Below are positions 1-62,095 of a stretch of 62,095 bases of DNA, piece after piece. This DNA comes from a virus (Duplodnaviria; Caudoviricetes). The position numbers and the translations under genes were made by a program. The stretch spans positions 1 to 62,095 of the IMG/VR virus record IMGVR_UViG_3300005747_000076; one strand, written 5' to 3'. The notes under the pieces are model-generated. The model was given only the letters and a program-made list of their open reading frames with translations. It had not been told where the DNA came from and did not search any database. Position 1 is the first letter of the stretch. Each line of letters opens with the position of its first letter.

Positions 1-578
1 CGTGTTTTTTGTCTTACACCAGGACTTCCTGTTGTTAAATCATCTTCCAAGTCGTCAATAACTACGACGTCAACGTGTGCACCAGTTATTTTACCTCCAC
101 TACCAATTGCTTCCAATGTTGGGTCAACCGAAGCACCGTCTCTTTTAACGTATAATTGTGTTGAAGTCCATTTAGTATCTGGCCCCTGAAAAGGAGGTAT
201 ATCATCACCGTTTGCCCAATCTTCTTTTATTTTCGGGCTTTCTAGGAATTGTTTTATTAATCTAACACGTTTCTCTGCTTGGCCTGCAGATGCGCTTATA
301 AAGAGTATTGATATATTTCTATTTAAACATATCTGCCTCACACAGTATGAAATAGCTAACAAACTTTTGCCATGCCCTCTCGGAGCCAGAACTAAGAGTT
401 TTTTCTTATCATTTGTTTCTTTAGCTTGATGGTGTAATTCTTCTACTGTGTTTAACCAATTATTTCTATGTTCAGCAGCTTGCATTGATAAATAATAACT
501 ATCAAAGAAAACGGGAGACGCAATACTTAATGCTCTTCTTCCTTCTCTTGTCGCAACTAATTCATGTATATTATTCAT
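1..578 (-). CDS. terL: Terminase large subunit, N-terminal ATPase half (runs off the window start, continues at 62095)
   Basis: Not in the ORF track. Manual translation from ATG 578 gives MNNIHEL...LLVLAPRGHGKS (Walker A)...ITGAHVDVVVIDDLED (Walker B)...GVRQKT. Confidence 0.93.
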   Translation of the reverse strand, partial: MNNIHELVATREGRRALSIASPVFFDSYYLSMQAAEHRNNWLNTVEELHHQAKETNDKKKLLVLAPRGHGKSLLAISYCVRQICLNRNISILFISASAGQAEKRVRLIKQFLESPKIKEDWANGDDIPPFQGPDTKWTSTQLYVKRDGASVDPTLEAIGSGGKITGAHVDVVVIDDLEDDLTTGSPGVRQKT

Positions 579-1365
579 GTTTAATCTTTTCTATAAAGTC
601 TAATTCCTGTTCAGTTAAATCAAATTTCATGCATACACGTAATTCACTAGTTTTCTCTTTAAATGAAATAACAGGTGTTTTACTGAAAGGGATTGTATTG
701 CTTCGTTTAATTACTATTAATGTCGCTTTTACAACGTCCATATTTAAATAATTTACAAAGTTATTACATTCTTCTAATGTTTCAAACCAAAATCTGTTTT
801 TATCTGTCTTAGATATTTTAGAAGCAACGATATTTATTTTACCAAAAGAATAAAATTCATCATCACTTTCAGTTTTTTTATTAAGCTCAACAACATAACC
901 TTCTTCTTTATACTCATCACCCATTAACAATGATGCTAAAGATTTATTTTCTCTAATATAGTTAAATCTACTATACAACATGCCGTATCCTAGATCTCCC
1001 TCGTATAAATCTGGCTTTGTTTTTGGAAAAGTTAATTTCATTGAGCCAAAATTAATGTTATGGCCAGTTAAGTCATTTGAATAGTTATATATTTCATCAT
1101 TATCACTTAATAAAGTCCAACCTGTTAAATCTTGGGGTCTTCTGTTTAATACTTTAATATGATTTAGTTTCTTTTTAAAAGAATTAATAGTTTCTTTATT
1201 CTCGTCTTTTTTAGTTTGGTCAATAAATGATGTAATAGGATGAGCAGTTAAAACGCATTCTGCATTTTCTTGTGCTTGTGTTATATAGTCAATCCAATTT
1301 TTTTCATGACTTAGATTACTGATAATTGTGTTAAACATAAATTTACCTTTTTTTGATTTGTTCAT
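571..1365 (-). CDS. Hypothetical protein
   Basis: 264-aa ORF whose stop overlaps the terL start; no recognisable motif. Confidence 0.8.
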   Translation of the reverse strand: MNKSKKGKFMFNTIISNLSHEKNWIDYITQAQENAECVLTAHPITSFIDQTKKDENKETINSFKKKLNHIKVLNRRPQDLTGWTLLSDNDEIYNYSNDLTGHNINFGSMKLTFPKTKPDLYEGDLGYGMLYSRFNYIRENKSLASLLMGDEYKEEGYVVELNKKTESDDEFYSFGKINIVASKISKTDKNRFWFETLEECNNFVNYLNMDVVKATLIVIKRSNTIPFSKTPVISFKEKTSELRVCMKFDLTEQELDFIEKIKHE

Positions 1366-3306: not shown

Positions 3307-3464
3307 GTTTTTTGTTTCCTTGTTTTGATGTATATATTAAATATAACACAAAAACCGAATAAATACACTATTTTTTAAAAAAAATTAAAATTTGTAATGT
3401 AGCGCCAATATATATAATATACTAATATAATAGCATTGCGTCAATAAAAAAAGGAGAAAAATAT

Positions 3465-3946: not shown

Positions 3947-3968
3947 AAAAAAAGGCCAGTTAAGGCCT
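3947..3968 (-). terminator. Intrinsic terminator
   Basis: AGGCC/GGCCT stem followed by U7 on the minus strand, between convergent genes. Confidence 0.6.
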
Positions 3969-3997: not shown

Positions 3998-4267
3998 TTA
4001 ATCTATCAGCTCGCCTTTTTCATTTAAATACGAAGCTTGGCAATCCCATAGTATTATATTTTCAACTGAAACTGTATGAGGTTTGCCATTTGTTAATAAT
4101 TCCCAAATCATTCCGCCTCTTTTACTATCATATGATTGGCTAACAAATATAGAAACATTAGGTTTAATATCTTTCTTACGTCTATCTTTGCTTTTAATCC
4201 AGTATAATAATTCACCGCCACGGCATTGGAAAATAATATCTTGCATTTTCTTCTTTTTAAATGTCAT
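3998..4267 (-). CDS. Small hypothetical protein
   Basis: Directly follows the polymerase-like gene; GELLYW...IWELLTNGK resembles the small-ORF family. Confidence 0.7.
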   Translation of the reverse strand: MTFKKKKMQDIIFQCRGGELLYWIKSKDRRKKDIKPNVSIFVSQSYDSKRGGMIWELLTNGKPHTVSVENIILWDCQASYLNEKGELID

Positions 4268-4268
4268 C

Positions 4269-5279
4269 TTAAATTTCTTTCACTGTAATTGGGTATTGGT
4301 TATTATTATATATTACTGAATTTGTGTTAACCTTGTTTTTTGTAATAATTCCATCATGGATATTAAGAACTGTATCATTGTTAGTTAATTGGCCAATAAT
4401 TTGTTGCTCGATGTATGTGAAGTATTTGTGAGGAGTATTAATTTCTACATCTTTTCCATTGTGTTGAACTGATGTGTATTTCTGTTTTACTCTTCTTTCA
4501 ATTTCAATGTGTAATTTATCAAACCATTGGACGCCAAAAAAGTTTTTCTTAGTTGTTGTTAAGTAGCAACGATACCTTTTAGCTTCTTCTTCATTACATT
4601 TAAAATCATTCATAATCCTGTCAATTAAAACGTCCTTATTATCAGGATGTAGCGCCCATGCCATTTCTAAATTACATTCATTCATGTTTAATTCATTAAA
4701 AGCAATAGTTGTGTGAGCAGATTTTAGATCAACGTCATAGCAACCTTGAAAGAGTTTATTGCGTAGTGATTTAGGAAGCAACTGAAAAGGATTATATTTA
4801 CGGAATGGGCTAGCATGTGTTGATGTGTAATAATCTTGGAAAGGTTTATCGGTCCATTCTTCCCATTTTTCAGTTAATAAATCTTTATTTTCTAGATCTG
4901 TTGTTGAATGTGAATAACCTTTAATAATTTCTTGGGGTATTACTAAATCACTAGCATCGTCCAATAACTGTTGAAATCCAGGAGTAAAGTTTTTAATAAC
5001 TCTACATTTGCCTTTCACCCATTCCCATTCATTACTAACAAATTCAATTGCATAACTAAAAACTTTTTGGTATGTTGTTCTATGAATTCCCATGTTCTGT
5101 AAATGAGTTGTGCTTACAAACATTTCACAATCATCATCCATGTTTTTATGCATATCTGCTACGTGTTTAATAGCATAGAATGTATCAACTGCTTGTGTCT
5201 TAGGTCTTCTAGTATAATTTCCTAATTCCTTCAGTCTAAATCTTAATTCGTTTTCGTTAGTAATTTTCATAGTCCCCAC
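4269..5279 (-). CDS. Minimal PolA/T7-RNAP superfamily polymerase (TV-Pol-like), no exonuclease or helicase domain
   Basis: RKYNPFQLLPKSLR (motif 2-like), YDVDLKSAH (motif A Asp), EEAKRY (motif B Lys), YFTYIE, LNIHDGII (motif C) in the correct order. Confidence 0.78.
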   Translation of the reverse strand: MGTMKITNENELRFRLKELGNYTRRPKTQAVDTFYAIKHVADMHKNMDDDCEMFVSTTHLQNMGIHRTTYQKVFSYAIEFVSNEWEWVKGKCRVIKNFTPGFQQLLDDASDLVIPQEIIKGYSHSTTDLENKDLLTEKWEEWTDKPFQDYYTSTHASPFRKYNPFQLLPKSLRNKLFQGCYDVDLKSAHTTIAFNELNMNECNLEMAWALHPDNKDVLIDRIMNDFKCNEEEAKRYRCYLTTTKKNFFGVQWFDKLHIEIERRVKQKYTSVQHNGKDVEINTPHKYFTYIEQQIIGQLTNNDTVLNIHDGIITKNKVNTNSVIYNNNQYPITVKEI

Positions 5280-5401
5280 TATTCTTAATCTATATTAATA
5301 TATATTAGGCAACAAGCCAAAAAACCAAATTTTTATAAAAAAATATTAATTAATTTTGGTTCCTGTATAGATTATATGAATTCGGGTCAAAATGTATACA
5401 T

Positions 5402-6882: not shown

Positions 6883-6971
6883 AATTTAATTTCCTTTCGG
6901 TGTTTTGTTGTATATAGTAATTATATACTAAAACATAAAAATGTATAAATATTTTTAAAAAAAATTGAAAA

Positions 6972-7187
6972 TTACACACATGTATACTTATAACACTTTT
7001 TTCCGTCAATTATCTTTATAGACCTTTTAACAGTGATTAACTGAATATTATCTAATACTGTTGGGAATTGACTCCGAGGACGCCAACTATATTCATTACC
7101 CCATACTTCAAATACAAATGGACTTATTTTAATTTTTATCTTTGACCCAATTAAATCACTATCAATTACAATATGGATCCAAGACAT
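6972..7187 (-). CDS. Hypothetical protein
   Basis: 71 aa, operon spacing. Confidence 0.65.
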   Translation of the reverse strand: MSWIHIVIDSDLIGSKIKIKISPFVFEVWGNEYSWRPRSQFPTVLDNIQLITVKRSIKIIDGKKCYKYTCV

Positions 7188-8317: not shown

Positions 8318-9226
8318 TTAAGCAGTAGCAATTTGTTTAAATCTTTTTTTCATTTTATTGTGCTTCCAAGATTTATCAATAATGGCTCCTTCCATGCGGG
8401 GAGGTCTTCCTGGTATAAAGCCTTGTGTGATATAGTGCATTACATTTTTAGTATCACTGCTTATTTGTTTCCAGTTCTGGCCTCTTCTATATACTGATTG
8501 ATTAGGAATATGAACCCATAGTTTTGTGCTTTTAACTTTCCATTCTCTATTAAGATACTGAATAAGATTTGCTGTAGGAACATCTATTTCATTATATTTT
8601 TCTTCTTTATCTAGCTTCCACAATTTTACTGTTTTGTTCTTCTCAACAATTGATTTTAGTGTTCCGTTGTTCCAGTGTGAGTTGAGTATATCTGTTGGGC
8701 TTAGGCCTTCTTTAAAGTTATCCCATGTTCCTAGAATTCTGTTAAAGGCCTGAATATTACATTTGAATGTTTTGTTTGTATCCTTACAGTGGAAATATTT
8801 AGAAGGCTCTGAAAAGTGATCTACGCCGCCAACTGCCATATTGTATGTATCTGCATTTAATAAATATGTTTCATCAACAATTTGTCTTTCAGCAATTTCT
8901 GTTTCTTCTTTAGTATCATAAAACGCCATAATATGCTGTTCAAAGTTTTTAATTCCTTTCTGAGCAATCATATAACGAAGTAGAGTTCCGCTTCCAACAT
9001 ATTTTTTAAATTTAGAAATTGATCCTGTATTAATCTTACCCCAGTATTCAAAGCCGTTTGTATTATCAACCAGTTTATATATACAGTGAATTTTTGCGTC
9101 TGCCTTAAGGTTATTATCAAACAACGCCTCAATTGTGTCGCCACATAATGCTCTGTTATTCCAGTATTTTGCGATGTTGTTTGATGATGAACCGAATAGA
9201 ATTTTATTTGTTTTAGATGTCTTCAT
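8318..9226 (-). CDS. Free-standing GIY-YIG (Seg-like) homing endonuclease
   Basis: CIYKLVD...EYWGK...YVGSG...KNF...E...YNMAVGG; start placed at ATG 9226 after AAGGAG. Confidence 0.85.
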   Translation of the reverse strand: MKTSKTNKILFGSSSNNIAKYWNNRALCGDTIEALFDNNLKADAKIHCIYKLVDNTNGFEYWGKINTGSISKFKKYVGSGTLLRYMIAQKGIKNFEQHIMAFYDTKEETEIAERQIVDETYLLNADTYNMAVGGVDHFSEPSKYFHCKDTNKTFKCNIQAFNRILGTWDNFKEGLSPTDILNSHWNNGTLKSIVEKNKTVKLWKLDKEEKYNEIDVPTANLIQYLNREWKVKSTKLWVHIPNQSVYRRGQNWKQISSDTKNVMHYITQGFIPGRPPRMEGAIIDKSWKHNKMKKRFKQIATA

Positions 9227-9353
9227 GTTTTTTCTCCTTAGAACCAATGTTTGTTTTCTTCTTGTTATTTTTTTTGGTTCCTATATCTATATATACTGTT
9301 AATATAGAAAGTTGAAGAAAAAAGTAAATTTTTTTTAAAATATTTTTTTAGTA

Positions 9354-9569
9354 TTAATTTTTGATTACTTTTTCAACATGTTGTGAAGATGTTTTGTATA
9401 TTGTATTGTCAGAGAGAATTGTAAAGAGTAGTAATTCATAGTCATGATCTTCTTCTATGTCAACTACTATTCCTACTCCTTCATGTGTGTCTTCAAAATC
9501 CCCTGTTAAAGCTACAAATGATACTAGATCTTTTAATTGTACGTTGTTTTTATTTTCATATTCATGCAT
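9354..9569 (-). CDS. Small hypothetical protein, SH3/KOW-like pattern
   Basis: LKDLVSF...GVGIVVDI...FTILSDN. Confidence 0.7.
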   Translation of the reverse strand: MHEYENKNNVQLKDLVSFVALTGDFEDTHEGVGIVVDIEEDHDYELLLFTILSDNTIYKTSSQHVEKVIKN

Positions 9570-9954
9570 GTGTATTATCCTTTACAATGTTTTTCCAATC
9601 AATAATTTTATTTTCTGTATGTGTTATTCTTTCATTTATTAGTTTATTAATGTCTTTATGCATTATAGCAGCTGAAATACAATCTGGTGCAAACATATCC
9701 AAATATTTCTTCATTAAAGTAGATAATTTCTTTTTTGTTTCTAACACATTGTTTTCATCAGTATCTACACCATAAACATTCATAGCAATCTTGTATGGAT
9801 CTTGATTTAAATCCATTTTCTTTTTATAAACTGCTTCCAAAATTTGTCCATTACCTATAAGCGGATCTAAGAATGTTTTATCTTCATTAAATTGTTCTTG
9901 AGGTAAATTATTAATCATGTCTTTAATTTCTTCTTTAGTCATTGTTGTCTCCAA
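9562..9954 (-). CDS. Truncated DNA methyltransferase-like protein (SAM-binding half)
   Basis: TFLDPLIGNGQIL (motif I) and VYGVD (motif II); no NPPY/DPPY. Confidence 0.7.
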   Translation of the reverse strand: METTMTKEEIKDMINNLPQEQFNEDKTFLDPLIGNGQILEAVYKKKMDLNQDPYKIAMNVYGVDTDENNVLETKKKLSTLMKKYLDMFAPDCISAAIMHKDINKLINERITHTENKIIDWKNIVKDNTHA

Positions 9955-11446: not shown

Positions 11447-11660
11447 TTTTTCTCCTTTTGTTTTCTCTTAATGTTTTTTCATATTCTAAACTCTTTTTAA
11501 CAGCATCATTCGCTGCATCTCGAAGTTCTCTTAATTGTTTTCTTAAAGCTCTTCCTCTAGTTAGTTTATGTTGCAATACAAATTCTTCAAGTTCTACGTT
11601 TGTTTTATTAATAATCCTTGTTATTTCTGCAAATGATAACATAATTTCTTCTTGCTTCAT
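11439..11660 (-). CDS. Histone H1-like Hc1-family protein
   Basis: ELEEF...KLTRGRALRKQLRELRDAA matches the Hc1 pattern (K-AG-R-RK-L-EL). Confidence 0.6.
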   Translation of the reverse strand: MKQEEIMLSFAEITRIINKTNVELEEFVLQHKLTRGRALRKQLRELRDAANDAVKKSLEYEKTLRENKRRKNE

Positions 11661-12310
11661 GCTGACACCTTACTTAATACTTGTTTATTGTTTAGCATTA
11701 CATTGAAGCCTTCACATTTAAATAAACATCTAGTACGAGATAAGATAACTGAAGGATGTGTTAAAATTCCGTATTTGTGCATTATTCCATCAAAATAATA
11801 TTTATCTGCTTTTCTATTGTAGCCTCTATACTCAACAAGTATTACACCAAACAAAGCAGCATATGCTTCTTTAACTTCAATAGTTGCATCATTCCATAAA
11901 TCAGCAACACCAAACTGTGTATATAGTTTTTGTGTAGTATAGCCAGTTAAGAGTTCTGTAGATTTTTTAAAAACATAATTGAAGTCATCTTCTTTTAGTT
12001 CTTTCTTAAATTCTTCATAAACAACATCATGCCACGCTAACTGCCTATCAATGGTATTATTAATATTATTATTTGGCTCGTCTGTAGCAGTGTCTGTTAA
12101 CTGCCTATCAATGGTATTATTACTATTATTGAATGATTTTTCGTATTCTTTTAGTAATAGCTCTGAAAATACATATTCTTCATTAACTTTATTATAGTAT
12201 AGGTCATCATTACCTTTACTGAGAAGTTTTTTGGTTGATTTTAAACCTAGCCATTGCCCAGGTGCTTTACCATTTCTATCATTTAGTTCATAAATTTCTT
12301 TTGCATTCAT
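11657..12310 (-). CDS. Hypothetical protein carrying two in-frame copies of the 20-bp motif
   Basis: NNTIDRQL twice; AAGGAG RBS. Confidence 0.8.
   Translation of the reverse strand: MNAKEIYELNDRNGKAPGQWLGLKSTKKLLSKGNDDLYYNKVNEEYVFSELLLKEYEKSFNNSNNTIDRQLTDTATDEPNNNINNTIDRQLAWHDVVYEEFKKELKEDDFNYVFKKSTELLTGYTTQKLYTQFGVADLWNDATIEVKEAYAALFGVILVEYRGYNRKADKYYFDGIMHKYGILTHPSVILSRTRCLFKCEGFNVMLNNKQVLSKVSA
12038..12057 (-). repeat. Dispersed 20-bp motif, copy 1 (ATACCATTGATAGGCAGTTA)
   Basis: Exact match to four other copies. Confidence 0.95.
12098..12117 (-). repeat. Dispersed 20-bp motif, copy 2
   Basis: Exact match, 60 bp from copy 1. Confidence 0.95.
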
Positions 12311-17288: not shown

Positions 17289-17460
17289 TTTACAACTAGA
17301 TAATGAACAAATTAAAGCAGTTAATATTCTTATTGCTGCAGCTGGTGTAGCACAAAAAGCTGGTGCATTTAGCCTTGAGGATGCAAAAACAATCTTTCAG
17401 GCAATTAAAACACTAGCTCCTGAACAAGAAGTTGAGAAAAAGGAGGAAGTTAGCGCATAA
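17281..17460 (+). CDS. Small helical protein (59 aa, absent from the ORF track)
   Basis: AGGAG RBS; MSNLQLDNEQIKAVNILIAAAGVAQKAGAFSLEDAKTIFQAIKTL...; followed by a terminator. Confidence 0.85.
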   Translation: MSNLQLDNEQIKAVNILIAAAGVAQKAGAFSLEDAKTIFQAIKTLAPEQEVEKKEEVSA

Positions 17461-18013: not shown

Positions 18014-18514
18014 TTAATCATTATTTTCTTTAGGCAACCAATTTTTAATATCTGTATGTAATTCAACCTCGTCAGGAGTTTGGCGCCTTATAATTTCTTT
18101 ATCTTTGAATATAGATAATTCAGTAATCATTGCTAACTGAAGATCACTTATTTGGTCTCTTAATATTTGTAATTGAATTTGACTATCACGCAATCTACTA
18201 ATTAATGCTTGCCTATCAGCATTTGCAACTGCTAATTTTTCCTTTAGTTCTTCTATTTCTGCAGGATCTCTGCCTGCTGCAATTGCTATCATACTGCCTA
18301 TTGACCCTGTTATAGTTCCTAAAACACCTACAACTATATCTCTATTATCAGGATTTATAGGGACAAATGCTAGAAATAAAATCATTAATATAACAAATCC
18401 AAGAAAAACTACTGAAAATACCCATCCTTTACGTGCTTTTTCACTTTGAGTAAATTCTTTTACTTTCTTTTTTACTTCTTCTTTTTCTTTCTGTTGATTA
18501 CTTGGGTCATTCAT
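18014..18514 (-). CDS. Two-TM membrane protein with C-terminal coiled coil
   Basis: Two hydrophobic helices then heptads; ATGA-coupled to the cyclase. Confidence 0.8.
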   Translation of the reverse strand: MNDPSNQQKEKEEVKKKVKEFTQSEKARKGWVFSVVFLGFVILMILFLAFVPINPDNRDIVVGVLGTITGSIGSMIAIAAGRDPAEIEELKEKLAVANADRQALISRLRDSQIQLQILRDQISDLQLAMITELSIFKDKEIIRRQTPDEVELHTDIKNWLPKENND

Positions 18515-19383
18515 TTCTTTAAATCCTCTATAGTAATTTTAATAATATGTTTAACAAAATCAAATATAACATCAATCCATTCAAAAGGTCTAAGAATTAA
18601 ATAATCTATATTCCAACTTTGTTTTGCATAAGGATCACTTAACAGAGGCCATAATATCCAAAGCCAAGCAAACATTACAATAAATCCAATACGCCAGAAA
18701 AAATATTCAACTATTTCAATAATTCTTTTATTTCTTAACCTTACTCTTACTTTTCCTTTTCCACCAATCCTTTTACTTTTCTCGCTATCAGGCGGAGGCT
18801 GTAGTTGTGCTTCAATCAATCCCATTGCATAAACTTGTTCAGGCTCTGAAACACCTTTGAATTTATATAATCCAACAAATACACTTAATGCATTTTTAGG
18901 AATGTGTATATTTCTTTTCTTTCTTTCTTTAAATTTCATCATTGCAGAATGTGATAGTAATATTTGTTCTTCTGCACATAATGACATAATACGCGCAGCA
19001 ATGTTTTTTCCTAATCCATCAATATTAATACGCTTCGCACCGCCTGAAACTAAACTTTCTGCAGTTTTAGTTATAGTCATTTTATCCCAGTGTATACCTA
19101 TTCTGCTCCTGAAAGGAAATTTATGAACTCTTAAATATTTCTTATAGGCAAATGCAAATGCAACAGCGTCATGCACTGTTCCAAAATACATTAAAGTTCC
19201 ATCACTTGCGTCAATCCATTGTCCATTATGTTTAGTAATTAATGACATTACAACTTTATCATGTGTGCTAAACCATTTTGCCGCTGTTCTAGATCCGTGT
19301 TTTTGCACAAACTTCGTGCTCCCAATAATGTCTGTTATGACTATTGCTATCCAGTCATCAACCATTTCTTGTGGCATCCCCAT
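18511..19383 (-). CDS. Class III nucleotide cyclase with C-terminal TM helix
   Basis: AIVITDIIGST, SDG, RIGIH, NIAARIMS, QILLS, FKGVSEP. Confidence 0.92.
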   Translation of the reverse strand: MGMPQEMVDDWIAIVITDIIGSTKFVQKHGSRTAAKWFSTHDKVVMSLITKHNGQWIDASDGTLMYFGTVHDAVAFAFAYKKYLRVHKFPFRSRIGIHWDKMTITKTAESLVSGGAKRINIDGLGKNIAARIMSLCAEEQILLSHSAMMKFKERKKRNIHIPKNALSVFVGLYKFKGVSEPEQVYAMGLIEAQLQPPPDSEKSKRIGGKGKVRVRLRNKRIIEIVEYFFWRIGFIVMFAWLWILWPLLSDPYAKQSWNIDYLILRPFEWIDVIFDFVKHIIKITIEDLKK

Positions 19384-29637: not shown

Positions 29638-29657
29638 TAACTGCCTATCAATGGTAT
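29638..29657 (-). repeat. Dispersed 20-bp motif, copy 3
   Basis: Sits between the stop at 29660 and the AAGGAG RBS of the next gene. Confidence 0.95.
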
Positions 29658-45582: not shown

Positions 45583-45602
45583 TAACTGCCTATCAATGGT
45601 AT
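45583..45602 (-). repeat. Dispersed 20-bp motif, copy 4
   Basis: Ends 3 nt before ATG 45579. Confidence 0.95.
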
Positions 45603-49022: not shown

Positions 49023-52000
49023 TTAGAAACCAGTTATTGCTACGCGCTTCCATGTATTAGATGCTGTGCAAATATATAGGAAGCCACTATCAAAGCGAAG
49101 ATCACCTGCAGTTCCTGTGTCAGTGCCTGAAAGAGGAGCTGAACCACCCATTCTCATCGCACCAATCAAGTTGCCGTTAGCTTCAACTGTTCCTGCCTCA
49201 ATATCCGCAAAAGCAAATCCTGCATCGCCTGTATCAACAGTAGTTGTAGGCTCCGAAGTAGCAGTAAATGCTTTGAATTTGTCGTCGGTCTCATCAAATG
49301 CAAATCCGCAGAAGCTAGAAGTATTGCGTTGTGAATAGAAACCATGATCAACTGCAGATGTATTATTAACACCAAGCTCGATAAGTGTATCGGAAAGTGA
49401 TAAGTTAGCACCTGATGAAATGATTTGGCCTGAAATTACTGCGCTTCCAAGAATAGAAGCACCGCCAGTAATAGTAAGATTACCACCAGCTTCAAGGTTG
49501 TTTGTAACAGAAACGTTAGAAGGAAGACCTACAGTATAAGTTCCACCGCTTTGTGCAACTTCACATTCATTCGCTGTTCCTTGAATTGTAAGAGTTCCGC
49601 CAAGAGCAACATCACTTGAAGTAGTGCCATCAGTAAATGATAGGTGATCATTCAAAATCATGCTGTTTTCTACTGCATCAGGTGCAATAGTAATAGCAAT
49701 GTTTGTGTCCCCTGTTCCATCAAATGAAGCACTACCTGCAGCATCACCACTAATTTGGATATTTCGTGCTGTTTCCAAAGCTGTTGCAGTTGCAGCATTA
49801 CCAGTTGTATCACTATCAATAATTGCCTCAAGTGCAACAGTAAGTTGATTAGCAGCTGCTGAGTATGAAATATCAATATCTTGGCCACTTACAAAATCAA
49901 CGTCGGAGCCAAGAGTAATATTTTCTTGTGCAACTCCATCAACCTTAAGTCCCCAATGGTCGTTAGCAAGTTTGGTATTTTGAATACTTCCAGTTTGAAT
50001 AACTGGAGATAACTGCACGTTCCCGGTGCCATCAAAACTAACTGATCCAGCAACAATTTCAGTTGAAGCCATATTAAAGTTTCTAGAAGTTTCTAGAGCA
50101 GTAGCAGTAGAAGCATTACCTGAAACATCAGCAGTAATTGTAGAAGGAAGGCCAATAGTGAAATCATTATTTAATGAAGACCAAACAACTTCAACTTCAT
50201 TGCTTGTTCCCTTAATTTCAAATTCACCACCAAGTGAAATAGCTTCAGAAGTAACACCATCACCAACTGAAATTGTGCTATTAGTAAGTTTACTGTTAGC
50301 AACGCTTCCTGCTTGGATAGAAGGAACTAATACTACGTTTCCTGTTGCATCATAAGAAACTGCAGAAGCAACGATTTCACTAGAAGAAATACTAAAGTCT
50401 CTTGCTGTTTCCTGAGCAGTAGCTGTAGCAGCGTTTCCTGTAGTATCTGCAGTAAGAATTGAAGGAAGATTATAGGTAATCTCATTATCAACAGCTGAAT
50501 AACTTAGAGTTAAATCACCACCCTTAGCAAATTTAAGTGTTGAACCGAGAGGACGATCATAATCTACAGAGTCTACCTGAATTACTAATTTATCATTTGC
50601 CAACATGTCGTTTGTAATTTGATCATCAGCAATAGATGTTGTAAGACTAACGTTCCCCGTTCCATCAAATGAAACTGCAGCTGCTTGAACTGGACCTGAA
50701 CCAATGCTAAAGTTGCGTGCTGTTTGTAGTGCAGTTGCTGAAGAAGCATTGCCAGTTAATTCAGCAGCAATAGTATCAGGTAAGCCAATAGTAAATGTGC
50801 CAGCTGAATAACCAACTTCTACTTCGCTACTTGTTCCTTGAATTACAACGTCGCCACCTAGTGCAATATCACTAGAAGTAATTCCATTGCCAAATCCAAT
50901 ATCACTATTAGTAAGTTTAGAATTAGCAACGCTGCCTGATTTCAATGAAGGTGCAAGCTGAACGTTTCCAGTTGCGTCATAAGATACTGCAGCAGCACTC
51001 ATCTCTGTTGAGTCAATGCTAAAGTCTCTAGCAGTTTCTTGTGCAGTAGATGTAGCTGCATTGCCGCTAGTATTTACGTTAATTGTTGAAGGAAGGCTGA
51101 AAGTAAGATCATTATCAACTGCGCTGTAAGAAACAGAAACTTGTGAAGCAGTTCCGTTAAAGTCTAGTTTTTCACCTAATTGGACTCTTTCTTGTGAAAC
51201 ACCATCAACAAAAATATCTAGTCCATTATTTACCATCATTGAGTTTTCAACAGAAGCTGCTTGAATTGTAGAAACGATGTTAGCATTTCCTGTTCCGTCA
51301 AATGAAACAGAGCCTGCAACGTCGCCGCTCAAAGAAAGAGTGCGAGAAGTTTCTAATGCAGTTGCTGTTGAAGCGTTTCCTGTAAGTGCACCAACAAAGC
51401 TTGTAGCAGAAACAGAAGAGAGTCCTGAAACGTCTGTTGCGAGTGATGCTGTGAAAACACCGTCAGTATAACCTATTTCAATTTCATCGTCGGTGCCATT
51501 AATTTGTAGAGATTGGCCAAGTTGGCGCTCTGTAGAAGTAACACCATCACCAAATGTAATACCTGGGTTAATCATCATTGAGTTAGCAACTGAAGAAGGT
51601 TGGATTGTTAAATCAACAGCACTTACATCAGCTGATCCGTCAATTGAAAAACTACCTTCAACATCACCACCTGTAAAACTAACAGTGCGTGCAGTTTGGA
51701 AAGCTGAAGCTGTATCAGCATTACCTGTCATATCACCAGTAATATCACCTTCAATATTAGCAACAATAACTGCTTTGTTTCCTGCAGAAAGTGTAGGAAC
51801 TGTAGAAGTAGGCTCTGTTGCTAAATCTTTAAATAGATAAAACTTCCCATCATCAGCATCACGGAAAAGCCCGTGGTATTTGTCGCTTCCATCATTTGAT
51901 AAACCATAAAAACCGATGTCAATTGCATCGCTGCTGTTATCTTTAGCAAGTTTAATGAGTGGATCAGTTGCTTCTACTGTTGAAACTGAAAGTGCTGTTT

Positions 52001-52154
52001 GAGTTCCAGTAACTGTTAAATTACCTTGAATTTCAACATTACTTGAGAATGTTCCTGTCTCGGCTTGAATATCTCCAATGTGAGCTGTGCCCCATTTCTT
52101 GGAAGAAGAGCCAAGATCATGGCCTTTATTTGTATTTGGTCTTAATGCAGACAT
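49023..52154 (-). CDS. Repeat-built virion fibre protein
   Basis: Seven ~105-aa GNA..A.A..TAR repeats; C-terminal GTAGDLRFDSGFLYICTASNTWKRVAI fibre motif. Confidence 0.85.
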   Translation of the reverse strand: MSALRPNTNKGHDLGSSSKKWGTAHIGDIQAETGTFSSNVEIQGNLTVTGTQTALSVSTVEATDPLIKLAKDNSSDAIDIGFYGLSNDGSDKYHGLFRDADDGKFYLFKDLATEPTSTVPTLSAGNKAVIVANIEGDITGDMTGNADTASAFQTARTVSFTGGDVEGSFSIDGSADVSAVDLTIQPSSVANSMMINPGITFGDGVTSTERQLGQSLQINGTDDEIEIGYTDGVFTASLATDVSGLSSVSATSFVGALTGNASTATALETSRTLSLSGDVAGSVSFDGTGNANIVSTIQAASVENSMMVNNGLDIFVDGVSQERVQLGEKLDFNGTASQVSVSYSAVDNDLTFSLPSTINVNTSGNAATSTAQETARDFSIDSTEMSAAAVSYDATGNVQLAPSLKSGSVANSKLTNSDIGFGNGITSSDIALGGDVVIQGTSSEVEVGYSAGTFTIGLPDTIAAELTGNASSATALQTARNFSIGSGPVQAAAVSFDGTGNVSLTTSIADDQITNDMLANDKLVIQVDSVDYDRPLGSTLKFAKGGDLTLSYSAVDNEITYNLPSILTADTTGNAATATAQETARDFSISSSEIVASAVSYDATGNVVLVPSIQAGSVANSKLTNSTISVGDGVTSEAISLGGEFEIKGTSNEVEVVWSSLNNDFTIGLPSTITADVSGNASTATALETSRNFNMASTEIVAGSVSFDGTGNVQLSPVIQTGSIQNTKLANDHWGLKVDGVAQENITLGSDVDFVSGQDIDISYSAAANQLTVALEAIIDSDTTGNAATATALETARNIQISGDAAGSASFDGTGDTNIAITIAPDAVENSMILNDHLSFTDGTTSSDVALGGTLTIQGTANECEVAQSGGTYTVGLPSNVSVTNNLEAGGNLTITGGASILGSAVISGQIISSGANLSLSDTLIELGVNNTSAVDHGFYSQRNTSSFCGFAFDETDDKFKAFTATSEPTTTVDTGDAGFAFADIEAGTVEANGNLIGAMRMGGSAPLSGTDTGTAGDLRFDSGFLYICTASNTWKRVAITGF

Positions 52155-52351: not shown

Positions 52352-55300
52352 TTATGGGATTGGATAACCTGCATATTTTCCTGTAAATTCAACATTTCCA
52401 TCACCAATAACTGCGAAGTTTTTATCTCCATTAACAGGAGCTTTTTCTCCGTAAAATACTAGGTCTGAAACGTTAGTAGTAACAAGATCATTGAAGTTTA
52501 TTTCCCAAGGTCCAAGGTGTGCCTTAAACATAAGAAGTGAGCCATCCATCTCAACAGCGTCTGCAGAATTATCATCCCAGAATATTCCTCCTCCACGTGT
52601 TTCAATAGCATCAAGTCTAAGTTCAGCAGCATCCATATCAGTTTGATCTGCTTTAAGAGCAACTGCATCAGCATTAACTTTTGCTTGTGTATCAAGAGCA
52701 GAAATCTCACCAACAATTGATGTTGCACTGTCTAGATAATTTGTTCCGCTACGTGCAACATGTGAGCCATCAGTAGCTAATCCTACACCAGTTTGAGTAT
52801 CATCTAACTCACTTTGTAGGTTAGCAATATCGCTTCCTCCAAGGCCAGTAATATCATCAGCATTTGATTTAACTTGTGCATCGAGTGCTTCAATAGCAGC
52901 TTTGAGGCTTCCTGAAATATAGTTTGTTGAACTATAAGCAGTTTTTGTTCCGTCAGTGCTTAGGCCTGCAGAAGCCTTGATATTGAGTTGGATTTGATTA
53001 AGAAGATTTTGATTTGTATCAAGAGTTTCCAAAGCGCCAACAATAGATGATGAACTATCAAGGAAGTTTGTTCCAGAAATACTTAGACTTCCATCTGTTT
53101 GTAATCCAACGCTTGCCTCAACAGTATCAATCTTTCCACTTAATGTATTATCAGCAGAAATTCTAGAAGCTGCTTCTGTATCTATATTATCTTGTCTTGT
53201 TTTAACTGCTGCATCCAATAATTCCATGCCAGCTTTAAGTGAAGAAGCAGAGTTAAGATAATTTTGACCTGTGAATGAAACGAATGTTCCATCAGCTGCT
53301 AATCCTACTGCAGTTTCAATAGCATCAACCTCAGTTTGAAGTGCAGAAACACTTGCCGATGAAGCCTTAGTTCCTATCGCGTCTTCATTTAATTTAATCT
53401 GCGCGTCCAACAGAGTGGTTTCTCCAATAACGTTTGTCGCACTGTCCATATAATTACTTCCGCTTCGAGTAATATATGCACCGCTTGCTGATAAACCAAT
53501 TGAAGTTTCATGAGTATCTGCCAATGTTTGTAAACTAGAAATTGCAGATGAATTTGTTGCAATATCATCATCATTAGTTTTAACTTGGCTATCCAATGCA
53601 CCAAGATCTGCCTTGAGGCTACCTTGACCTAGATAATTGTGATCTGCTGGTGAGGTATAACTACCGTTTGCCGCCAAACCAATACTTGCCTGAGATACAT
53701 CTAATTCACTTTGTAAAGCTGAAACTGTAGCTGAAGAAGCTTTAGTAGCAATTGCCGAAGCGTTAGTAGCTATATCTGTCGCATTATCCAATATTCCATC
53801 AGTATTAACTTTAATTTGTGCGTCTAATTTATTATCTGCATCTTTTAAAGAAGTTGCTGCTGAAATATAATTGGCACCTGTATTAGCGCTATAACTTCCA
53901 TCACTTCCAAGTCCTGCTCCGCTTTGTGTAGTATTGACTTCACTCTGTAGAGTTGCAATATCTGTTTCTACATCTAAAATAGCAGAAGCTCGGTTTGTAG
54001 CTTCGGTAGTAATGGCATCTGCATTTGTTTTAGCTTGACTATCCAATAATCCTAATGCATTTCTAACAGATGTTGAAGAAGCTAAGTAATTAGAAGAAGC
54101 AGGAGCCTGATATGCACCATTAATAGTTAATCCAACTGAAGTTTCAATAGCATCTACTTCACTTTGCAATGATGTAAGAGCTGCTTCATCGGAAGTTAAA
54201 CGACTATCAAGTGAAGCAATATCGCTATCATTAGAAGCTATAGCATCTGCATTGTTCTTTACTTGTGTATCTAACTGGCTAACAGCGCCTTTTAATGTTG
54301 AAGCAGTTGCATAGTTGCCAGTAAGAGGTGTATAACTACCATCTGTATTTAATCCTACACCGCTTTCAATTCCATCAATTTCAGCCTGCATTGCAGTAAT
54401 AGTTGCTGAAGATGCGAGAGAAGCTACATCACTTTGTAGTGTAGCAATGTCGCTATCATTTGAAGCTATTGCATCAGCGTTAGATTTAGCTTGTGCATCA
54501 AGTAATGTAATTTCACCACGTATACTAGTTGCAGCGTCCAAATAATTTGATCCACTTCTTCCTTGGTAAGCGCCTGTTGCACTAAGACCAATAGAAGTTT
54601 CATGTAAATCAACAACTGCTTCGAGTGATGTAAGATCTGCCGCATCTGCTTTAGATGTATTTAGACCTGAAACATCGCTTTGCAATGTAGATACATCACC
54701 CTGTAATGAAGTAATATCACTAGCATTACCTGAAATATTGCTTGTATTTGTAGCAATGTTTGATGTATTAGTATTAACAGTAGTTGTTAATGAAGAAACA
54801 TCAGAAGCACTTGCCTTAAGTGCAATATTATCCGCATTGCTTTTAATTTGCGTATCAAGTAAACTATCTGCTGCTTTTAATGATGTAGCAGATGATAAAT
54901 AATTACTAACTCCAGGAGCAACATAAGCACCAGTATTAGAAAGTCCAGCGCCAGCCTGTGTTGTATCAACTTCACCTTGTAATGCTTGAATTTCTGCAGA
55001 AGTTGCACCACTGCCAGCTGTTAAAGTAGCTACAGTAGCTTCAAGGTTTGTAATATCATCTTCATTAATCTTAGTTTGTGCATCAACTAAAGATAAAGCT
55101 TCTTTTGTAGTTGTAGCACTATCCATATAATTGCTGCCACTATGTGCAGAATATGTGCCGTTTGCATTTAGACCAACAGCTGCTTGTGAAGCATCAAGCT
55201 CCGCTTGCAATGCTGTAACTGTTGAACTATCAGCTTTTCCACTTACTGAAGTTTGTAAAGAAGAAATAGATAATTCAGCAGTGTCTAGGTCGCTTTGTGT

Positions 55301-57767: not shown

Positions 57768-58031
57768 ATGGATAAAAAAAAATACGCTGCTTCTACTGAA
57801 TATATGAATTTGGTTGATATTGCTAAGATAATGACTGAAAGAGGATATAAAATGAACCACTCAACAACACGCAAATATCTTTTATCAGGATTATCAAAAA
57901 TAGCACATACATTACTAGTATATGAAGGCTATACAGAAGAAGAAGCAGATAACATGGCTTATGATATAGCAAAAAGCCCAGAATTCCATGAATATGTTAA
58001 GGATATGTTAACAGAAATCTATAACAAATAA
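57768..58031 (+). CDS. HTH protein (sigma region 4-like)
   Basis: MNLVDIAKIM...NHSTTRKYLLSGLSKI. Confidence 0.65.
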   Translation: MDKKKYAASTEYMNLVDIAKIMTERGYKMNHSTTRKYLLSGLSKIAHTLLVYEGYTEEEADNMAYDIAKSPEFHEYVKDMLTEIYNK

Positions 58032-58038
58032 TATTAAT

Positions 58039-58058
58039 ATACCATTGATAGGCAGTTA
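58039..58058 (+). repeat. Dispersed 20-bp motif, copy 5 (opposite strand)
   Basis: ATACCATTGATAGGCAGTTA between two plus-strand genes. Confidence 0.95.
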
Positions 58059-60976: not shown

Positions 60977-62095
60977 TTAATCAAATAATCCTGTAAATCT
61001 TTGTGTTTTATCATCATCATAATCTAGATCTTCATCTAAATCATTTCTTTGTGCTCCAATCTCGTTTAGGACTGAAGAAACTATATTATCAGTCAATCTT
61101 TCAGTAACTTCATTACCCATATAATCTAGGACTTTATCTCCAACGGCGATACTATATGTATTTCCTACCTTTTTAACTGCGTCTAATGCATGAATTAATG
61201 ATGTGAGAGTATCGTCATGCGGAGCTCTTGGATATCCTACAGCTTCGTCTCCCATTATATCAATTTTCTTTTGGCAATAAGCGTCTCCGTAAGGTAGATT
61301 TAATAATTCATTTTCAAATAAAACTGCAATGTGGTGTATTGAATTTCTTAAAGCGTTTTTAGCACTCATTATAACAGGTTTGACTGGAAGAGAAGTTCTT
61401 TGTAATTGTTGCACATATAAAGCACCAAAACTATTTTTCTCAACCCATATTTCTTTCACATAGTCTTTCCATTTATTATACATACTTACAATAGCATTCA
61501 TTATCTGTTGTTGTGTTATGCCTCGTTCATGGAACATATCTAAGATCCAGATTTTTCCGTTTTTATCTCGTGCTAGTGTATAGCCACATGTATAATCTGT
61601 ATCTTTAGTTTGTGCTTTCTTTTTATCACCTTCAATACTCAAGTCCCAGCCACATACTACGGTGCAGGCTGATAGATTGATTGGTGGCGGATTATTAAAT
61701 GAATAAGTGTTTCTTTTAGCTCTATCAATCCATTCCCTTTTAATAATAGCATCGTCTTCACTCTGCACTTCATTCTGCATTTCTCTAGCAAACAAGTGTG
61801 AGCCCATAGATCTGCGTTCCATTAATAAATATTCTATAGGTCTAAATTCAGGCCATAGAACTTCATAATCACCTTTAACAGCAACTTCTTTTAAAAATTC
61901 ATTTCCTTTACTATCAGTCTCTGTTATATAACTATAGTCATCAGGCCATTTAATAATAGCATTATCTTCTATTACTCTGTATGTTGGGTCAGTTTTCATA
62001 TGAGCATAAACATCATCGTCATGCTTTCTCGTACCAATTACCAACATCACACCTCCTTGGTTTAATATAGGTGTAACAGTAGCAGCAAGCCAATC
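60977..62095 (-). CDS. terL: Terminase large subunit, C-terminal half (coupling motif and RNase H-like nuclease)
   Basis: Frame open to the window end: DWLAATVTPIL..VIGTRKH, LWPE, FAREMQN, GWDLS, DYT, VEKNSF, PHDDTL. Confidence 0.93.
   Translation of the reverse strand, partial: DWLAATVTPILNQGGVMLVIGTRKHDDDVYAHMKTDPTYRVIEDNAIIKWPDDYSYITETDSKGNEFLKEVAVKGDYEVLWPEFRPIEYLLMERRSMGSHLFAREMQNEVQSEDDAIIKREWIDRAKRNTYSFNNPPPINLSACTVVCGWDLSIEGDKKKAQTKDTDYTCGYTLARDKNGKIWILDMFHERGITQQQIMNAIVSMYNKWKDYVKEIWVEKNSFGALYVQQLQRTSLPVKPVIMSAKNALRNSIHHIAVLFENELLNLPYGDAYCQKKIDIMGDEAVGYPRAPHDDTLTSLIHALDAVKKVGNTYSIAVGDKVLDYMGNEVTERLTDNIVSSVLNEIGAQRNDLDEDLDYDDDKTQRFTGLFD

What the first reader, a model, noticed from the sequence alone, without database searches (positions are those of the whole stretch)
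4269..5279. Stand-alone 336-aa TV-Pol-like enzyme is the only polymerase in the genome
Seen: PolA-superfamily motifs A (YDVDLKSAH), B (EEAKRY) and C (NIHDG) are intact within about 190 residues, after a ~140-aa N-terminal domain; no exonuclease, helicase or primase is fused or adjacent. Known: the TV-Pol family is related to both family A DNA polymerases and T7-like RNA polymerases and is often linked to D5-type helicases. Inference: this may be a minimal sequence-specific primase/initiator or a minimal single-subunit RNA polymerase.
Basis: partly seen in the sequence, partly recalled or inferred. Interest (0 to 1): 0.75.

Follow-up and report, generated by a model that had tools for sequence, protein, structure and literature searches.

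The report
Mini polymerase tied to repeated DNA site
A marine phage with no other recognisable replication or transcription enzyme encodes a very small polymerase-like protein with a DNA-binding head, and it and its relatives each travel with their own conserved 20-letter DNA site, often written into the polymerase gene itself, which suggests a site-specific starter of DNA or RNA chains.

Summary
The ORF at 4269-5279(-) is real. It belongs to a rare, unnamed phage family: 30 representatives among 1.84 billion clusters, one a false hit. No Pfam, PHROG, NCBIfam or PDB sequence match was found. An AlphaFold model (pLDDT 93.5) shows a winged-helix-like head (residues 1-115) and a roughly 210-residue palm plus fingers core. 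[quoted passage not shown] R160, D184 and K234 are invariant in 43 of 43 relatives; H308-D309 in 42 of 43. No thumb is modelled. The nearest viral models include virophage primase-helicase proteins, so "TV-Pol-like" is partly supported. The window closes into a circle inside the terminase gene, so the genome is essentially complete, and no other polymerase, primase or helicase was detected. New here: a 20-mer occurs five times in this genome and in a relative. Unrelated phages carrying a homologue have their own variant (ATTGAT-N7-TTAAG type), usually as two in-frame copies inside the polymerase gene (17 of 43 proteins). Best reading (0.45): an origin-specific primase/initiator. Main rival: a minimal promoter-specific RNA polymerase. 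All function is inferred.

The parts
4269..5279 (-). mini polymerase ORF (336 aa from GTG 5279; likelier start ATG 5270, 333 aa)
4935..5279 (-). N-terminal domain, residues 1-115, winged-helix-like (weak structural matches)
   Evidence: ORC2 C-terminal WH Z 5.5 (94 aligned), CodY DNA-binding domain Z 5.1, MukF, ScpB; conserved RxPR, F-x-ST-x-x-LQ, CR positions
4272..4901 (-). residues 127-336: minimal family-A/T7-like palm plus short fingers, no thumb modelled
4800..4802 (-). codon of R160 (SPFRxYH hairpin arginine), 43/43
4728..4730 (-). codon of D184 (motif A aspartate), 43/43
4578..4580 (-). codon of K234 (motif B / O-helix-like lysine), 43/43
4353..4358 (-). codons of H308-D309 (motif C), 42/43
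3998..4267 (-). 89-aa ORF starting 1 nt after the polymerase stop; conserved and abutting or overlapping in 3 of 3 close relatives; small beta-barrel model
3953..3968 (-). terminator-like hairpin plus T-run ending the two-gene unit
   Evidence: consensus scan only
5371..5398 (-). sigma-70-like site TATACA-16-TATAAT about 90 nt upstream of the ORF
   Evidence: consensus scan; number of such sites in the region not above shuffles
12038..12117 (-). tandem pair of the 20-mer ATACCATTGATAGGCAGTTA, 60 bp apart, in frame (NTIDRQL twice) in the linker of the 217-aa ORF 11657-12310
29638..29657 (-). 20-mer copy, 14 nt upstream of the ATG (29623) of the 602-aa baseplate gene, followed by AAGGAG
45583..45602 (-). 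20-mer copy, 3 nt upstream of the ATG (45579) of the 153-aa gene that heads the protease/capsid block
58039..58058 (+). 20-mer copy between a small HTH-like ORF (57769-58031) and the 389-aa gene (58150-59319), co-oriented with both
1..578 (-). N-terminal 192 codons of the large terminase, running off the window start
60977..62095 (-). C-terminal 372 codons of the same terminase; joins the other end with one base missing, showing the record is a closed genome

Best explanation
The gene encodes a two-domain enzyme. A winged-helix-like DNA-binding head is fused to the smallest known type of family-A/T7-like polymerase core: a palm with both metal-binding aspartates and a four-helix fingers stump carrying the O-helix lysine, with no thumb and no nuclease. 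I propose that the head docks the enzyme on the phage's conserved bipartite site (core ATTGAT-N7-TTAAC/G, two half-sites one helical turn apart). The palm then starts a short chain de novo there, and the host replisome extends it. On this reading it is an origin-specific primase that acts as the phage's replication initiator.

Shown: the fold, the invariant catalytic residues, the completeness of the genome with no other detectable replication enzyme, and the co-occurrence of protein family and site family, including sites inside the gene.

Inferred: that the protein binds the site, that it initiates de novo, the sugar of the product, and the hand-over to host enzymes. dNTP use is guessed from an aromatic residue or His at D+5 where Pol I has its steric-gate Glu.
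For: (1) Fold. The AF2 model has pLDDT 93.5. In VIA-wide, ranks 1-18 are all family-A DNAPs or T7-like/mitochondrial RNAPs, with Z 9.9-5.8, 193-204 residues aligned and rmsd 3.6-4.6. The next other fold on that domain scores Z 4.9. All Foldseek-PDB rows shown are A-family DNAPs, although the best E is only 0.033.

(2) Active site. R160, D184 and K234 are 43/43; H308-D309 are 42/43. The motifs line up with E. coli Pol I D705/K758/D882 and T7 RNAP D537/K631/D812 contexts printed from fetched records.

(3) Site link.
- The 20-mer occurs 5 times exactly, against 0.01 expected.
- A relative whose polymerase is 64% identical has 5 copies with 0-1 mismatch.
- Four further fragments carry the pair at syntenic places while flanking proteins are 50-60% identical.
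- Unrelated phages with a homologue (different TerL and capsid PHROGs) carry their own variant. L019 has 3 copies, 2 inside the gene. L021 has 2, both inside. L022 has 4, 2 inside. L035 and L036 also have in-gene pairs.
- 17 of 43 distinct family proteins carry an exact internal peptide repeat of at least 6 aa. 16 of these map to two loops of the model, about residues 45-54 and 129-147.
- A cis site written into the initiator's own gene is the arrangement recalled for lambda O/ori.

(4) Genome. It closes as a circle. No polymerase, primase, helicase, SSB or ligase hit was found.

(5) Precedent. CcPol-MP is an A-family polymerase that primes DNA synthesis with dNTPs (PMC7581432, passages; PMC10061031, sections 3 and 5). 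TV-Pols were predicted to be primases (PMC2579912, text parts 1-2).

(6) A thumb-less core suits short products better than processive synthesis (inference).
Against: No binding or activity data exist.
- The O-helix arginine (K-4) and the Tyr-Gly of motif B are not conserved, so nucleotide binding may be unusual or weak.
- No helicase or loader is encoded, so origin melting is unexplained.
- The site has no hairpin potential on either strand (z 0.34 to 1.27), unlike the ssi sites recalled for RSF1010.
- Three of five window copies lie directly upstream of, and co-oriented with, genes at the head of structural or other blocks. L022's copy at 17413 sits 32 nt before the gene that precedes the capsid gene. 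That pattern looks at least as much like a promoter as an origin.
- Other small HTH proteins could be the site's binder, for example ORF 57769-58031 right next to one copy.
- In the window's own clade the pair is not in the polymerase gene but about 7 kb away in another ORF.
Confidence: 0.45

Rival explanations
1. It is a minimal promoter-specific single-subunit RNA polymerase. The head recognises the 20-bp site as a promoter, and the enzyme transcribes middle or late genes. As recalled for T7, such transcripts could also prime replication.
For: The core matches T7 RNAP (Z 7.5), yeast and human mitochondrial RNAPs (Z 7.3, 6.1) and N4 RNAPII (Z 5.5). An Atlas neighbour cluster has PF00940 on 18% of members.

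Site copies are co-oriented with the gene they precede or lie in for 5 of 5 copies in the window, 3 of 3 in L019, 2 of 2 in L021 and 3 of 4 in L022. Several sit 3-32 nt before start codons of structural-block genes.

The Pol I steric-gate Glu is absent (position 189: F 35, H 5, Y 1, W 1, N 1 of 43). No other RNAP or sigma-like hit was found in the genome.
Against: A roughly 210-residue core without thumb, specificity loop or intercalating hairpin would have to transcribe blocks of up to about 28 kb. The smallest such enzyme in the VIA list, N4 RNAPII, is a two-subunit enzyme (PMC4496689, search listing only; subunit sizes recalled).

The apparent likeness of the site to T7 promoters is not above background. 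It gives 10-13 of 23 matches, and 1,408 window positions match the T7 majority sequence at 12 or more of 24.

Sense copies inside the enzyme's own gene make little sense as promoters. One L022 copy points antisense into a 1426-aa gene. Bulky Phe at D+5 resembles the steric gate recalled for family-B DNA polymerases. PF00940 does not match (no positive control).
Confidence: 0.2
2. It is a non-site-specific small DNA polymerase or prim-pol used for repair, gap filling or bulk phage replication, as predicted for TV-Pols. The repeated 20-mer would belong to another factor.
For: Structural neighbours include virophage replication proteins and small phage PolA-like clusters. The catalytic residues are invariant. 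Other HTH proteins that could own the site exist.
Against: It does not explain why unrelated phages carry their own site variant inside this very gene, at the same two loops. No thumb, no processivity partner and no helicase linkage were seen.
Confidence: 0.12
3. It is chiefly a DNA-binding regulator or roadblock (autoregulator, late-gene switch). Its polymerase-like domain would be inactive or would make something other than a primer.
For: It has a winged-helix-like head. Sites lie in its own coding region and before late genes. The fingers are divergent and lack the RxxxK arginine.
Against: The metal-binding Asp pair is conserved in every full-length member (D184 43/43; D309 42/43, the single miss being a truncated sequence), together with Lys, Arg and the His next to the motif C Asp, at 25-65% overall identity. 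This argues for retained catalysis.
Confidence: 0.1

Closest known systems
TV-Pol family (Iyer, Abhiman, Aravind 2008; e.g. Sputnik V13 N-terminal domain)
   Same: A minimal nuclease-free family-A/T7-like core in viruses and mobile elements, with a hairpin arginine plus two palm aspartates. It was predicted to prime. Virophage primase-helicase proteins are among the nearest predicted viral structures.
   Different: - It is about half the size of the TV-Pol proteins in the paper (400-600 residues).
- No coiled-coil thumb is modelled.
- The RxxxK arginine is absent.
- It has a winged-helix-like head instead of D5 helicase linkage.
- No profile-level sequence link was found.
- It has cognate DNA sites inside its own gene.
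CcPol-MP primase of SCCmec (Bebel et al. 2020; Rice 2023)
   Same: An A-family polymerase domain acts as a primase, with a small beta-rich protein encoded immediately downstream. Here the downstream protein is an 89-aa small beta-barrel, coupled in 3 of 3 close relatives.
   Different: - CcPol keeps a full polymerase domain, part of the exonuclease and the E710-type steric gate (PMC7581432 passages).
- MP is an OB fold and a helicase follows.
- Here the partner is clade-restricted, no helicase is present, and DNA recognition is apparently by a fused head.
T7-like single-subunit RNA polymerases with their promoters (and N4 RNAPII)
   Same: They share the palm and fingers fold. Both have a phage-specific, near-invariant site of about 20 bp repeated a few times and co-oriented with genes. 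Both have tandem sites: T7 phi1.1A/1.1B are 75 bp apart in the fetched record; their origin role is recalled.
   Different: The core is under a third of their length and has no thumb, specificity loop or N-terminal promoter-opening domain. The site's likeness to T7 promoters is at background level.
Origin-specific plasmid primases (ColE2 Rep, RSF1010 RepB') and lambda O with ori inside its own gene (all recalled, not tested here)
   Same: The logic is shared: a protein of about 300 aa that recognises a specific site and makes the first primer for host polymerases. The cis sites lie in frame within the linker of the initiator gene.
   Different: Those primases have AEP-type catalytic domains, and lambda O has none. 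Here the catalytic domain is of the family-A type.

Membership tests
Family-A DNA polymerase / T7-like RNAP superfamily (fold level) | Right-hand palm (RRM-like) with fingers inserted after the first palm strand | tested here: met
   Residues 127-336 match 18 of the top 18 VIA chains of this superfamily, Z 9.9-5.8 with 193-204 residues aligned. All Foldseek-PDB rows shown are A-family DNAPs, but the best E is 0.033.
Family-A DNA polymerase / T7-like RNAP superfamily (fold level) | Two metal-binding aspartates (motifs A and C) and the motif B lysine | tested here: met
   D184 43/43, D309 42/43, K234 43/43. Contexts were compared with Pol I D705/K758/D882 and T7 RNAP D537/K631/D812. Residue-level structural superposition was not available.
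Pfam DNA_pol_A (PF00476) / RNA_pol (PF00940) | Profile match above the curated cut-off | tested here: not met
   No hit at E up to 10. None of 27 relatives hit either family. The PF00940 search had no positive control.
TV-Pol (Iyer et al. 2008) | N-terminal thumb built on two antiparallel coiled-coil helices | tested here: not met
   Between the head (1-115) and the hairpin (150-162) the model has only helices 116-122 and 132-142 and strand 125-128. PolA alignments start at residue 123-128.
TV-Pol (Iyer et al. 2008) | Beta-hairpin with an absolutely conserved arginine | tested here: met
   R160 is 43/43, in the segment from strand 150-153 to residue 162. Equivalence to Pol I R668 is inferred from the shared R...[ND]P..Q pattern.
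TV-Pol (Iyer et al. 2008) | Fingers HTH with RxxxK | tested here: not met
   K234 is invariant, but K-4 is E in the window and no member of the 28-row alignment shows R there (read by eye).
TV-Pol (Iyer et al. 2008) | Detectable sequence or structure relationship to known TV-Pols | tested here: inconclusive
   The family profile found nothing in phage Ma-LMM01. BFVD lists a Zamilon virophage replication protein at E 1.1e-2 and a Qinghai Lake virophage helicase/primase/polymerase at E 5e-2. Atlas neighbours carry DUF5906/D5_N.
TV-Pol (Iyer et al. 2008) | Fusion or neighbourhood with a D5-like helicase, or with the family's helical N-domain plus a resolvase, integrase or transposase | tested here: not met
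   No helicase, integrase or resolvase was found in the window or next to the homologues in L019, L021 and L022. One weak transposase-like hit lies beside L019's gene.
PolA-SSB primases (CcPol-MP type) | Polymerase gene followed by a small OB-fold SSB and a helicase | tested here: inconclusive
   The downstream 89-aa protein models as a small beta-barrel (pLDDT 78). Its best matches (BAH, Hfq, YaeO, WYL, Tudor) have Z up to 7.1, and it is not clearly an OB fold. No helicase is present. The partner is absent next to distant homologues.

The most novel reading that the evidence does not exclude
This would be a previously undescribed class of replication or transcription starter. It is the smallest right-hand (family-A type) polymerase, about 210 catalytic residues and thumb-less, made sequence-specific by a fused winged-helix head. 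Its cognate 20-bp start sites are carried in frame inside two surface loops of its own gene, so enzyme and site move together between unrelated phages as one self-contained origin-plus-primase (or promoter-plus-polymerase) cassette.
Probability: 0.4. Interest if true: 0.88.

Novelty: new variant of a known kind. Interest (0 to 1): 0.76.

Why it matters
If the protein really starts chains at its own site, three things follow.
- It would define the minimal catalytic unit of the family-A/T7-like polymerases far below current examples.
- It would add a second, independent case, after CcPol-MP, of a family-A fold used as a primase.
- It would explain how a 62-kb tailed phage with no recognisable replication genes launches replication.

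A roughly 330-aa enzyme with a 20-bp address would also be attractive as a programmable priming or transcription tool. The site-inside-its-own-gene arrangement, recurring at the same two loops with different sequences, is a neat natural example of enzyme and target evolving as one mobile unit.

Tried and rejected
- Sequence searches of the protein against Pfam, PHROGs, NCBIfam and PDB sequences gave only chance-level hits.
- hhalign of the 28-row family alignment against single sequences of the Pol I polymerase domain and T7 RNAP gave nothing (probability under 1%). Single-sequence templates are insensitive, so this says little.
- tblastn against 50,697 phage records found no match.
- The family profile search in the 5.8-billion protein set returned only 12 proteins, none named and none with a Pfam domain.
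- The genome-contig scan with alignment A3 found no relative.
- One of the 30 phmmer hits (P0032, 1137 aa) is an LPXTG surface protein and was dropped as a false hit. P0030, P0031 and P0033 were left out of alignment A2.
- Complex prediction of the polymerase with the 89-aa neighbour gave no verdict (score 0.06, mark 0.32).
- The T7-promoter likeness of the site was rejected as background.
- Hairpin formation by the site was rejected.
- Site-bearing fragments G003-G006 lack the polymerase gene. They do not cover the part of the genome where it would lie, so they give no evidence either way.
- Sequencing runs: no RNA holder is listed. Only seawater-metagenome DNA contigs hold the stretch.
- Literature searches for TV-Pol, CcPol / PolA-type primase, smallest single-subunit RNAP, and family-A + primase + winged helix turned up no description of this family. 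Supplements were not seen. Fig. 2 and Additional file 1 of PMC2579912, which list TV-Pol members, could bear on membership.
Full report
**1.

ORF 4269-5279 on the minus strand is open for 336 codons from a GTG. The database copy (333 aa) and every homologue begin at the fourth residue, so ATG 5270 is the likelier start.

The protein has no significant match in:
- Pfam or PHROGs;
- NCBIfam;
- PDB sequences, searched with the single sequence or with a profile;
- 50,697 phage records.

It belongs to a small family. An exhaustive phmmer pass over 1.84 billion cluster representatives gave 30 hits at E <= 1e-3. One of them is a false hit on a surface protein. None of the 27 relatives scanned has a Pfam domain relevant to it.

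**2. What the protein is**

An AlphaFold2 model built on 28 family sequences is confident: mean pLDDT 93.5, pTM 0.86.

Residues 127-336 were aligned against about 48,000 PDB representatives.
- Ranks 1-18 are exclusively family-A DNA polymerases (Aquifex Pol I, Pol nu, T7 DNAP, Klenow, Pol theta, Pol gamma and others) and T7-like or mitochondrial RNA polymerases.
- Their scores are Z 9.9 to 5.8, with 193-204 residues aligned at rmsd 3.6-4.6 A.
- The next different fold on that domain is a family-B palm at Z 4.9.
- Foldseek against the PDB lists only A-family DNAPs, but weakly (best E 0.033; none at E <= 0.001).

The aligned targets span 370-890 residues, so this core is a drastic reduction. It consists of the motif A strand (181-185), four fingers helices (188-265), a hairpin, a helix (283-298), the motif C hairpin (303-313) and two closing strands. 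No thumb is modelled between residue 115 and the arginine hairpin.

Residues 1-115 give only modest matches, to winged-helix DNA-binding domains: ORC2 C-terminal WH Z 5.5, CodY Z 5.1, then MukF and ScpB. I therefore call this domain winged-helix-like, not proven.

**3. Conservation**

In 43 distinct family sequences (database proteins plus ORFs from fetched contigs), conservation is as follows:
- R160, D184, K234 and L256 are invariant.
- H308-D309, T288 and E291 are 42/43; the single miss is a truncated protein.

Side by side with sequences taken from the fetched E. coli and T7 records, the contexts resemble each other:
- Motif A: VD184LKSAH against Pol I AD705YSQIE and T7 RNAP FD537GSCSG.
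- Motif C: IHD309G against Pol I VHD882E and T7 RNAP IHD812S.
- Pre-motif-A: R160 followed by NP-x-Q against Pol I R668...DPNLQ and T7 RNAP R425...NPQ.

Two things differ. The O-helix arginine four residues before the lysine, and the Tyr-Gly after it, are absent. The Pol I steric-gate Glu position (D+5) is Phe in 35, His in 5, and Tyr, Trp or Asn in one each.

**4. Is it a TV-Pol?**

Iyer et al. (PMC2579912; I read parts 1 and 2 of the text, not the figures or the additional file) define the TV-Pol core by four features:
- a coiled-coil thumb;
- a hairpin arginine;
- two palm aspartates;
- a fingers HTH with RxxxK.

They also describe linkage to D5-like helicases. Here the arginine and the aspartates are met. 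The thumb and RxxxK are not. No helicase is nearby in the window or beside three distant homologues. A family profile found nothing in phage Ma-LMM01, which that paper says carries a TV-Pol.

On the other side, structural neighbours point towards TV-Pols:
- The nearest predicted viral structures are uncharacterised phage proteins (E 3e-5).
- A Pyramimonas virus 'replication origin-binding protein domain' protein follows (E 4.7e-4).
- A Zamilon virophage 'DNA replication protein' of 778 aa (E 1.1e-2) and a Qinghai Lake virophage 'helicase/primase/polymerase' (E 5e-2) are also listed.
- The first named PolA is at rank 15.
- ESM-Atlas structural neighbours include Preplasmiviricota proteins of 751 and 776 aa with DUF5906/D5_N (a lead only).

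That Zamilon is a Sputnik relative is recalled. I conclude that this is a new, minimal branch near TV-Pols within the family-A/T7-like superfamily. It is not a demonstrated TV-Pol member.

**5. The genome is complete and has no other detectable polymerase**

IMG/VR labels the record linear, and CheckV rates it 41% complete. However, the large terminase is split across the window ends. 192 codons run off position 1 and 372 codons enter at position 62095. Joining them with exactly one missing base gives an open 565-codon frame. That frame aligns end to end, with no gap at the junction (VRQKTRDWLAATV), to the 565-aa TerL of a related contig at 74% identity. The record is therefore a closed genome of about 62.1 kb from a tailed phage with sheath and baseplate genes.

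Searches covered:
- PHROGs on 56 ORFs;
- Pfam on 47 ORFs;
- NCBIfam on 25 ORFs;
- six-frame PF00476 and PF00940.

No polymerase, primase, helicase, SSB or ligase was found. The only DNA-metabolism hits are a RecU-like resolvase, a GIY-YIG endonuclease, methyltransferases and a PIN-like protein. About half the small ORFs remain unassigned, so absence is not proof.

**6. The new link: a cognate DNA site**

In the window and its close relatives:
- The 20-mer ATACCATTGATAGGCAGTTA occurs five times exactly, against 0.01 expected.
- Each copy is co-oriented with the gene it precedes or lies in.
- Two copies lie 60 bp apart, in frame (NTIDRQL twice), in the linker of a conserved 217-aa ORF.
- One lies 14 nt before the start of a baseplate gene.
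- One lies 3 nt before the gene that heads the protease/capsid block.
- One is on the other strand, before the 389-aa plus-strand gene.
- A relative whose polymerase is 64% identical has five copies with 0-1 mismatch.
- Four more fragments carry the pair at syntenic places although the flanking proteins are only 50-60% identical.

In unrelated phages that carry a distant homologue (25-35% identity, different terminase and capsid families), each has its own variant of the same bipartite pattern:
- L019: GCTATTGATAATACCTTAAGA, three copies, two inside the polymerase gene.
- L021: ...ACCATGGATAATAACCTAAG, two copies, both inside.
- L022: CAAGCATTGGTTGGTCCTTAAG, four copies. Two are inside, one is 32 nt before the gene preceding the capsid gene, and one is antisense at the end of a 1426-aa gene.
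- Two short metagenome contigs (L035, L036) also have in-gene pairs.
- Six other loci scanned (L027, L028, L029, L031, L032 and L033; 3-11 kb contigs, L028 being the same contig as L003) showed no repeat of the site family, in-gene or elsewhere; L034 too has no in-gene repeat, though it and L033 carry other repeated sequences outside the gene.

At protein level, 17 of 43 distinct family members contain an exact internal peptide repeat of six or more residues. In 16 of them the copies map to the same two loops of the model, about residues 45-54 and 129-147. They are either 279-309 bp apart or in close tandem.

The common core (ATTGAT, seven bases, TTAAG/C) has two half-sites one helical turn apart. 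The site has no hairpin potential. A DNA element that follows a protein family across unrelated genomes, and is written into that protein's own gene, is most simply its binding site. That step is inference.

**7. Mechanism**

I favour an origin-specific primase/initiator at 0.45. The arguments are:
- the cis sites inside the initiator's own gene, as recalled for lambda O;
- a head of the kind common in initiators;
- a thumb-less core suited to short products;
- the CcPol-MP precedent for a family-A primase that uses dNTPs (PMC7581432 passages; PMC10061031 sections 3 and 5);
- a complete genome with no other way to start replication.

The main rival, at 0.2, is a minimal promoter-specific RNA polymerase. 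The positions of the sites just upstream of structural-gene starts and their orientation speak for it. Against it stand the tiny core, the sense copies inside the enzyme's own gene, one antisense copy, and the failure of the T7-promoter likeness to exceed background (10-13 of 23 matches; 1,408 window positions do as well against the T7 majority).

The two readings could merge if short transcripts prime replication, as recalled for T7's tandem phi1.1A/B promoters. These are seen 75 bp apart in the fetched record.

**8. The neighbour**

The 89-aa ORF at 3998-4267 starts one base after the polymerase stop. It overlaps or abuts the polymerase gene in all three close relatives. It models as a small beta-barrel (pLDDT 78; best matches BAH, Hfq, YaeO and WYL at Z up to 7.1). 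A terminator-like hairpin follows it. It is absent beside the distant homologues, so it is not a universal partner.

**9. Novelty**

Four full-text searches and the family-A reclassification paper (PMC10201439, passages) gave no description of such a protein or of the site-in-gene arrangement. I rate it a new variant of a known kind, with high interest because a simple set of assays would settle it.

Noticed in passing
window 18511-19383 (-): This 290-aa ORF in the tail/lysis border region matches the N-terminal cyclase part of TIGR04510 (E 4e-34) and the LipJ adenylate cyclase model. It had no Pfam or PHROG hit at 1e-3. It may be a phage-encoded class III nucleotide cyclase-like protein.
   Followed up: no
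window 1-578 and 60977-62095: The record rated 41% complete and 'linear' closes into a circle inside the terminase gene with one base missing. The completeness estimate is misleading for this lineage.
   Followed up: yes
window 571-1365 (-), 9562-9954 (-), 59469-60398 (-): Two separate ORFs hit different parts of the same PHROG (phrog_11371 positions 179-247 and 298-368) and methyltransferase models. A full methyltransferase lies elsewhere. This may be a split or duplicated methyltransferase near a GIY-YIG endonuclease gene (8318-9247).
   Followed up: no
It is unrelated in sequence to the 20-mer.
   Followed up: partly
window 57769-58031 (+): An unlisted ORF of about 87 aa with an HTH-like stretch ends 8 nt before the plus-strand copy of the 20-mer. 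A similar ORF end precedes the copy in the relative. It is an alternative candidate binder of the site.
   Followed up: no
window 3310-3393 and 6890-6973: An 84-nt AT-rich repeat (70% identical) lies upstream of two minus-strand gene blocks and contains sigma-70-like hexamers. These are probably early promoter regions.
   Followed up: no
window 52352-56911 (-) and 49023-52154 (-): Long internally repetitive genes (1519 and 1043 aa) with many 45-145-nt repeat families. Fibre-like PHROG hits and coiled-coil Pfam hits were found.
   Followed up: no
L033 and L034 (metagenome contigs with 29-30% identical homologues): These contigs carry other repeated 16-18-mers (AAAAAGCGCTCCTTAC; TTAAAGGTATACAAATTA three times; ATTTCAAAGAGCATATAA, one copy about 300 nt upstream of the polymerase gene). 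They do not fit the ATTGAT-N7-TTAAG pattern.
   Followed up: no
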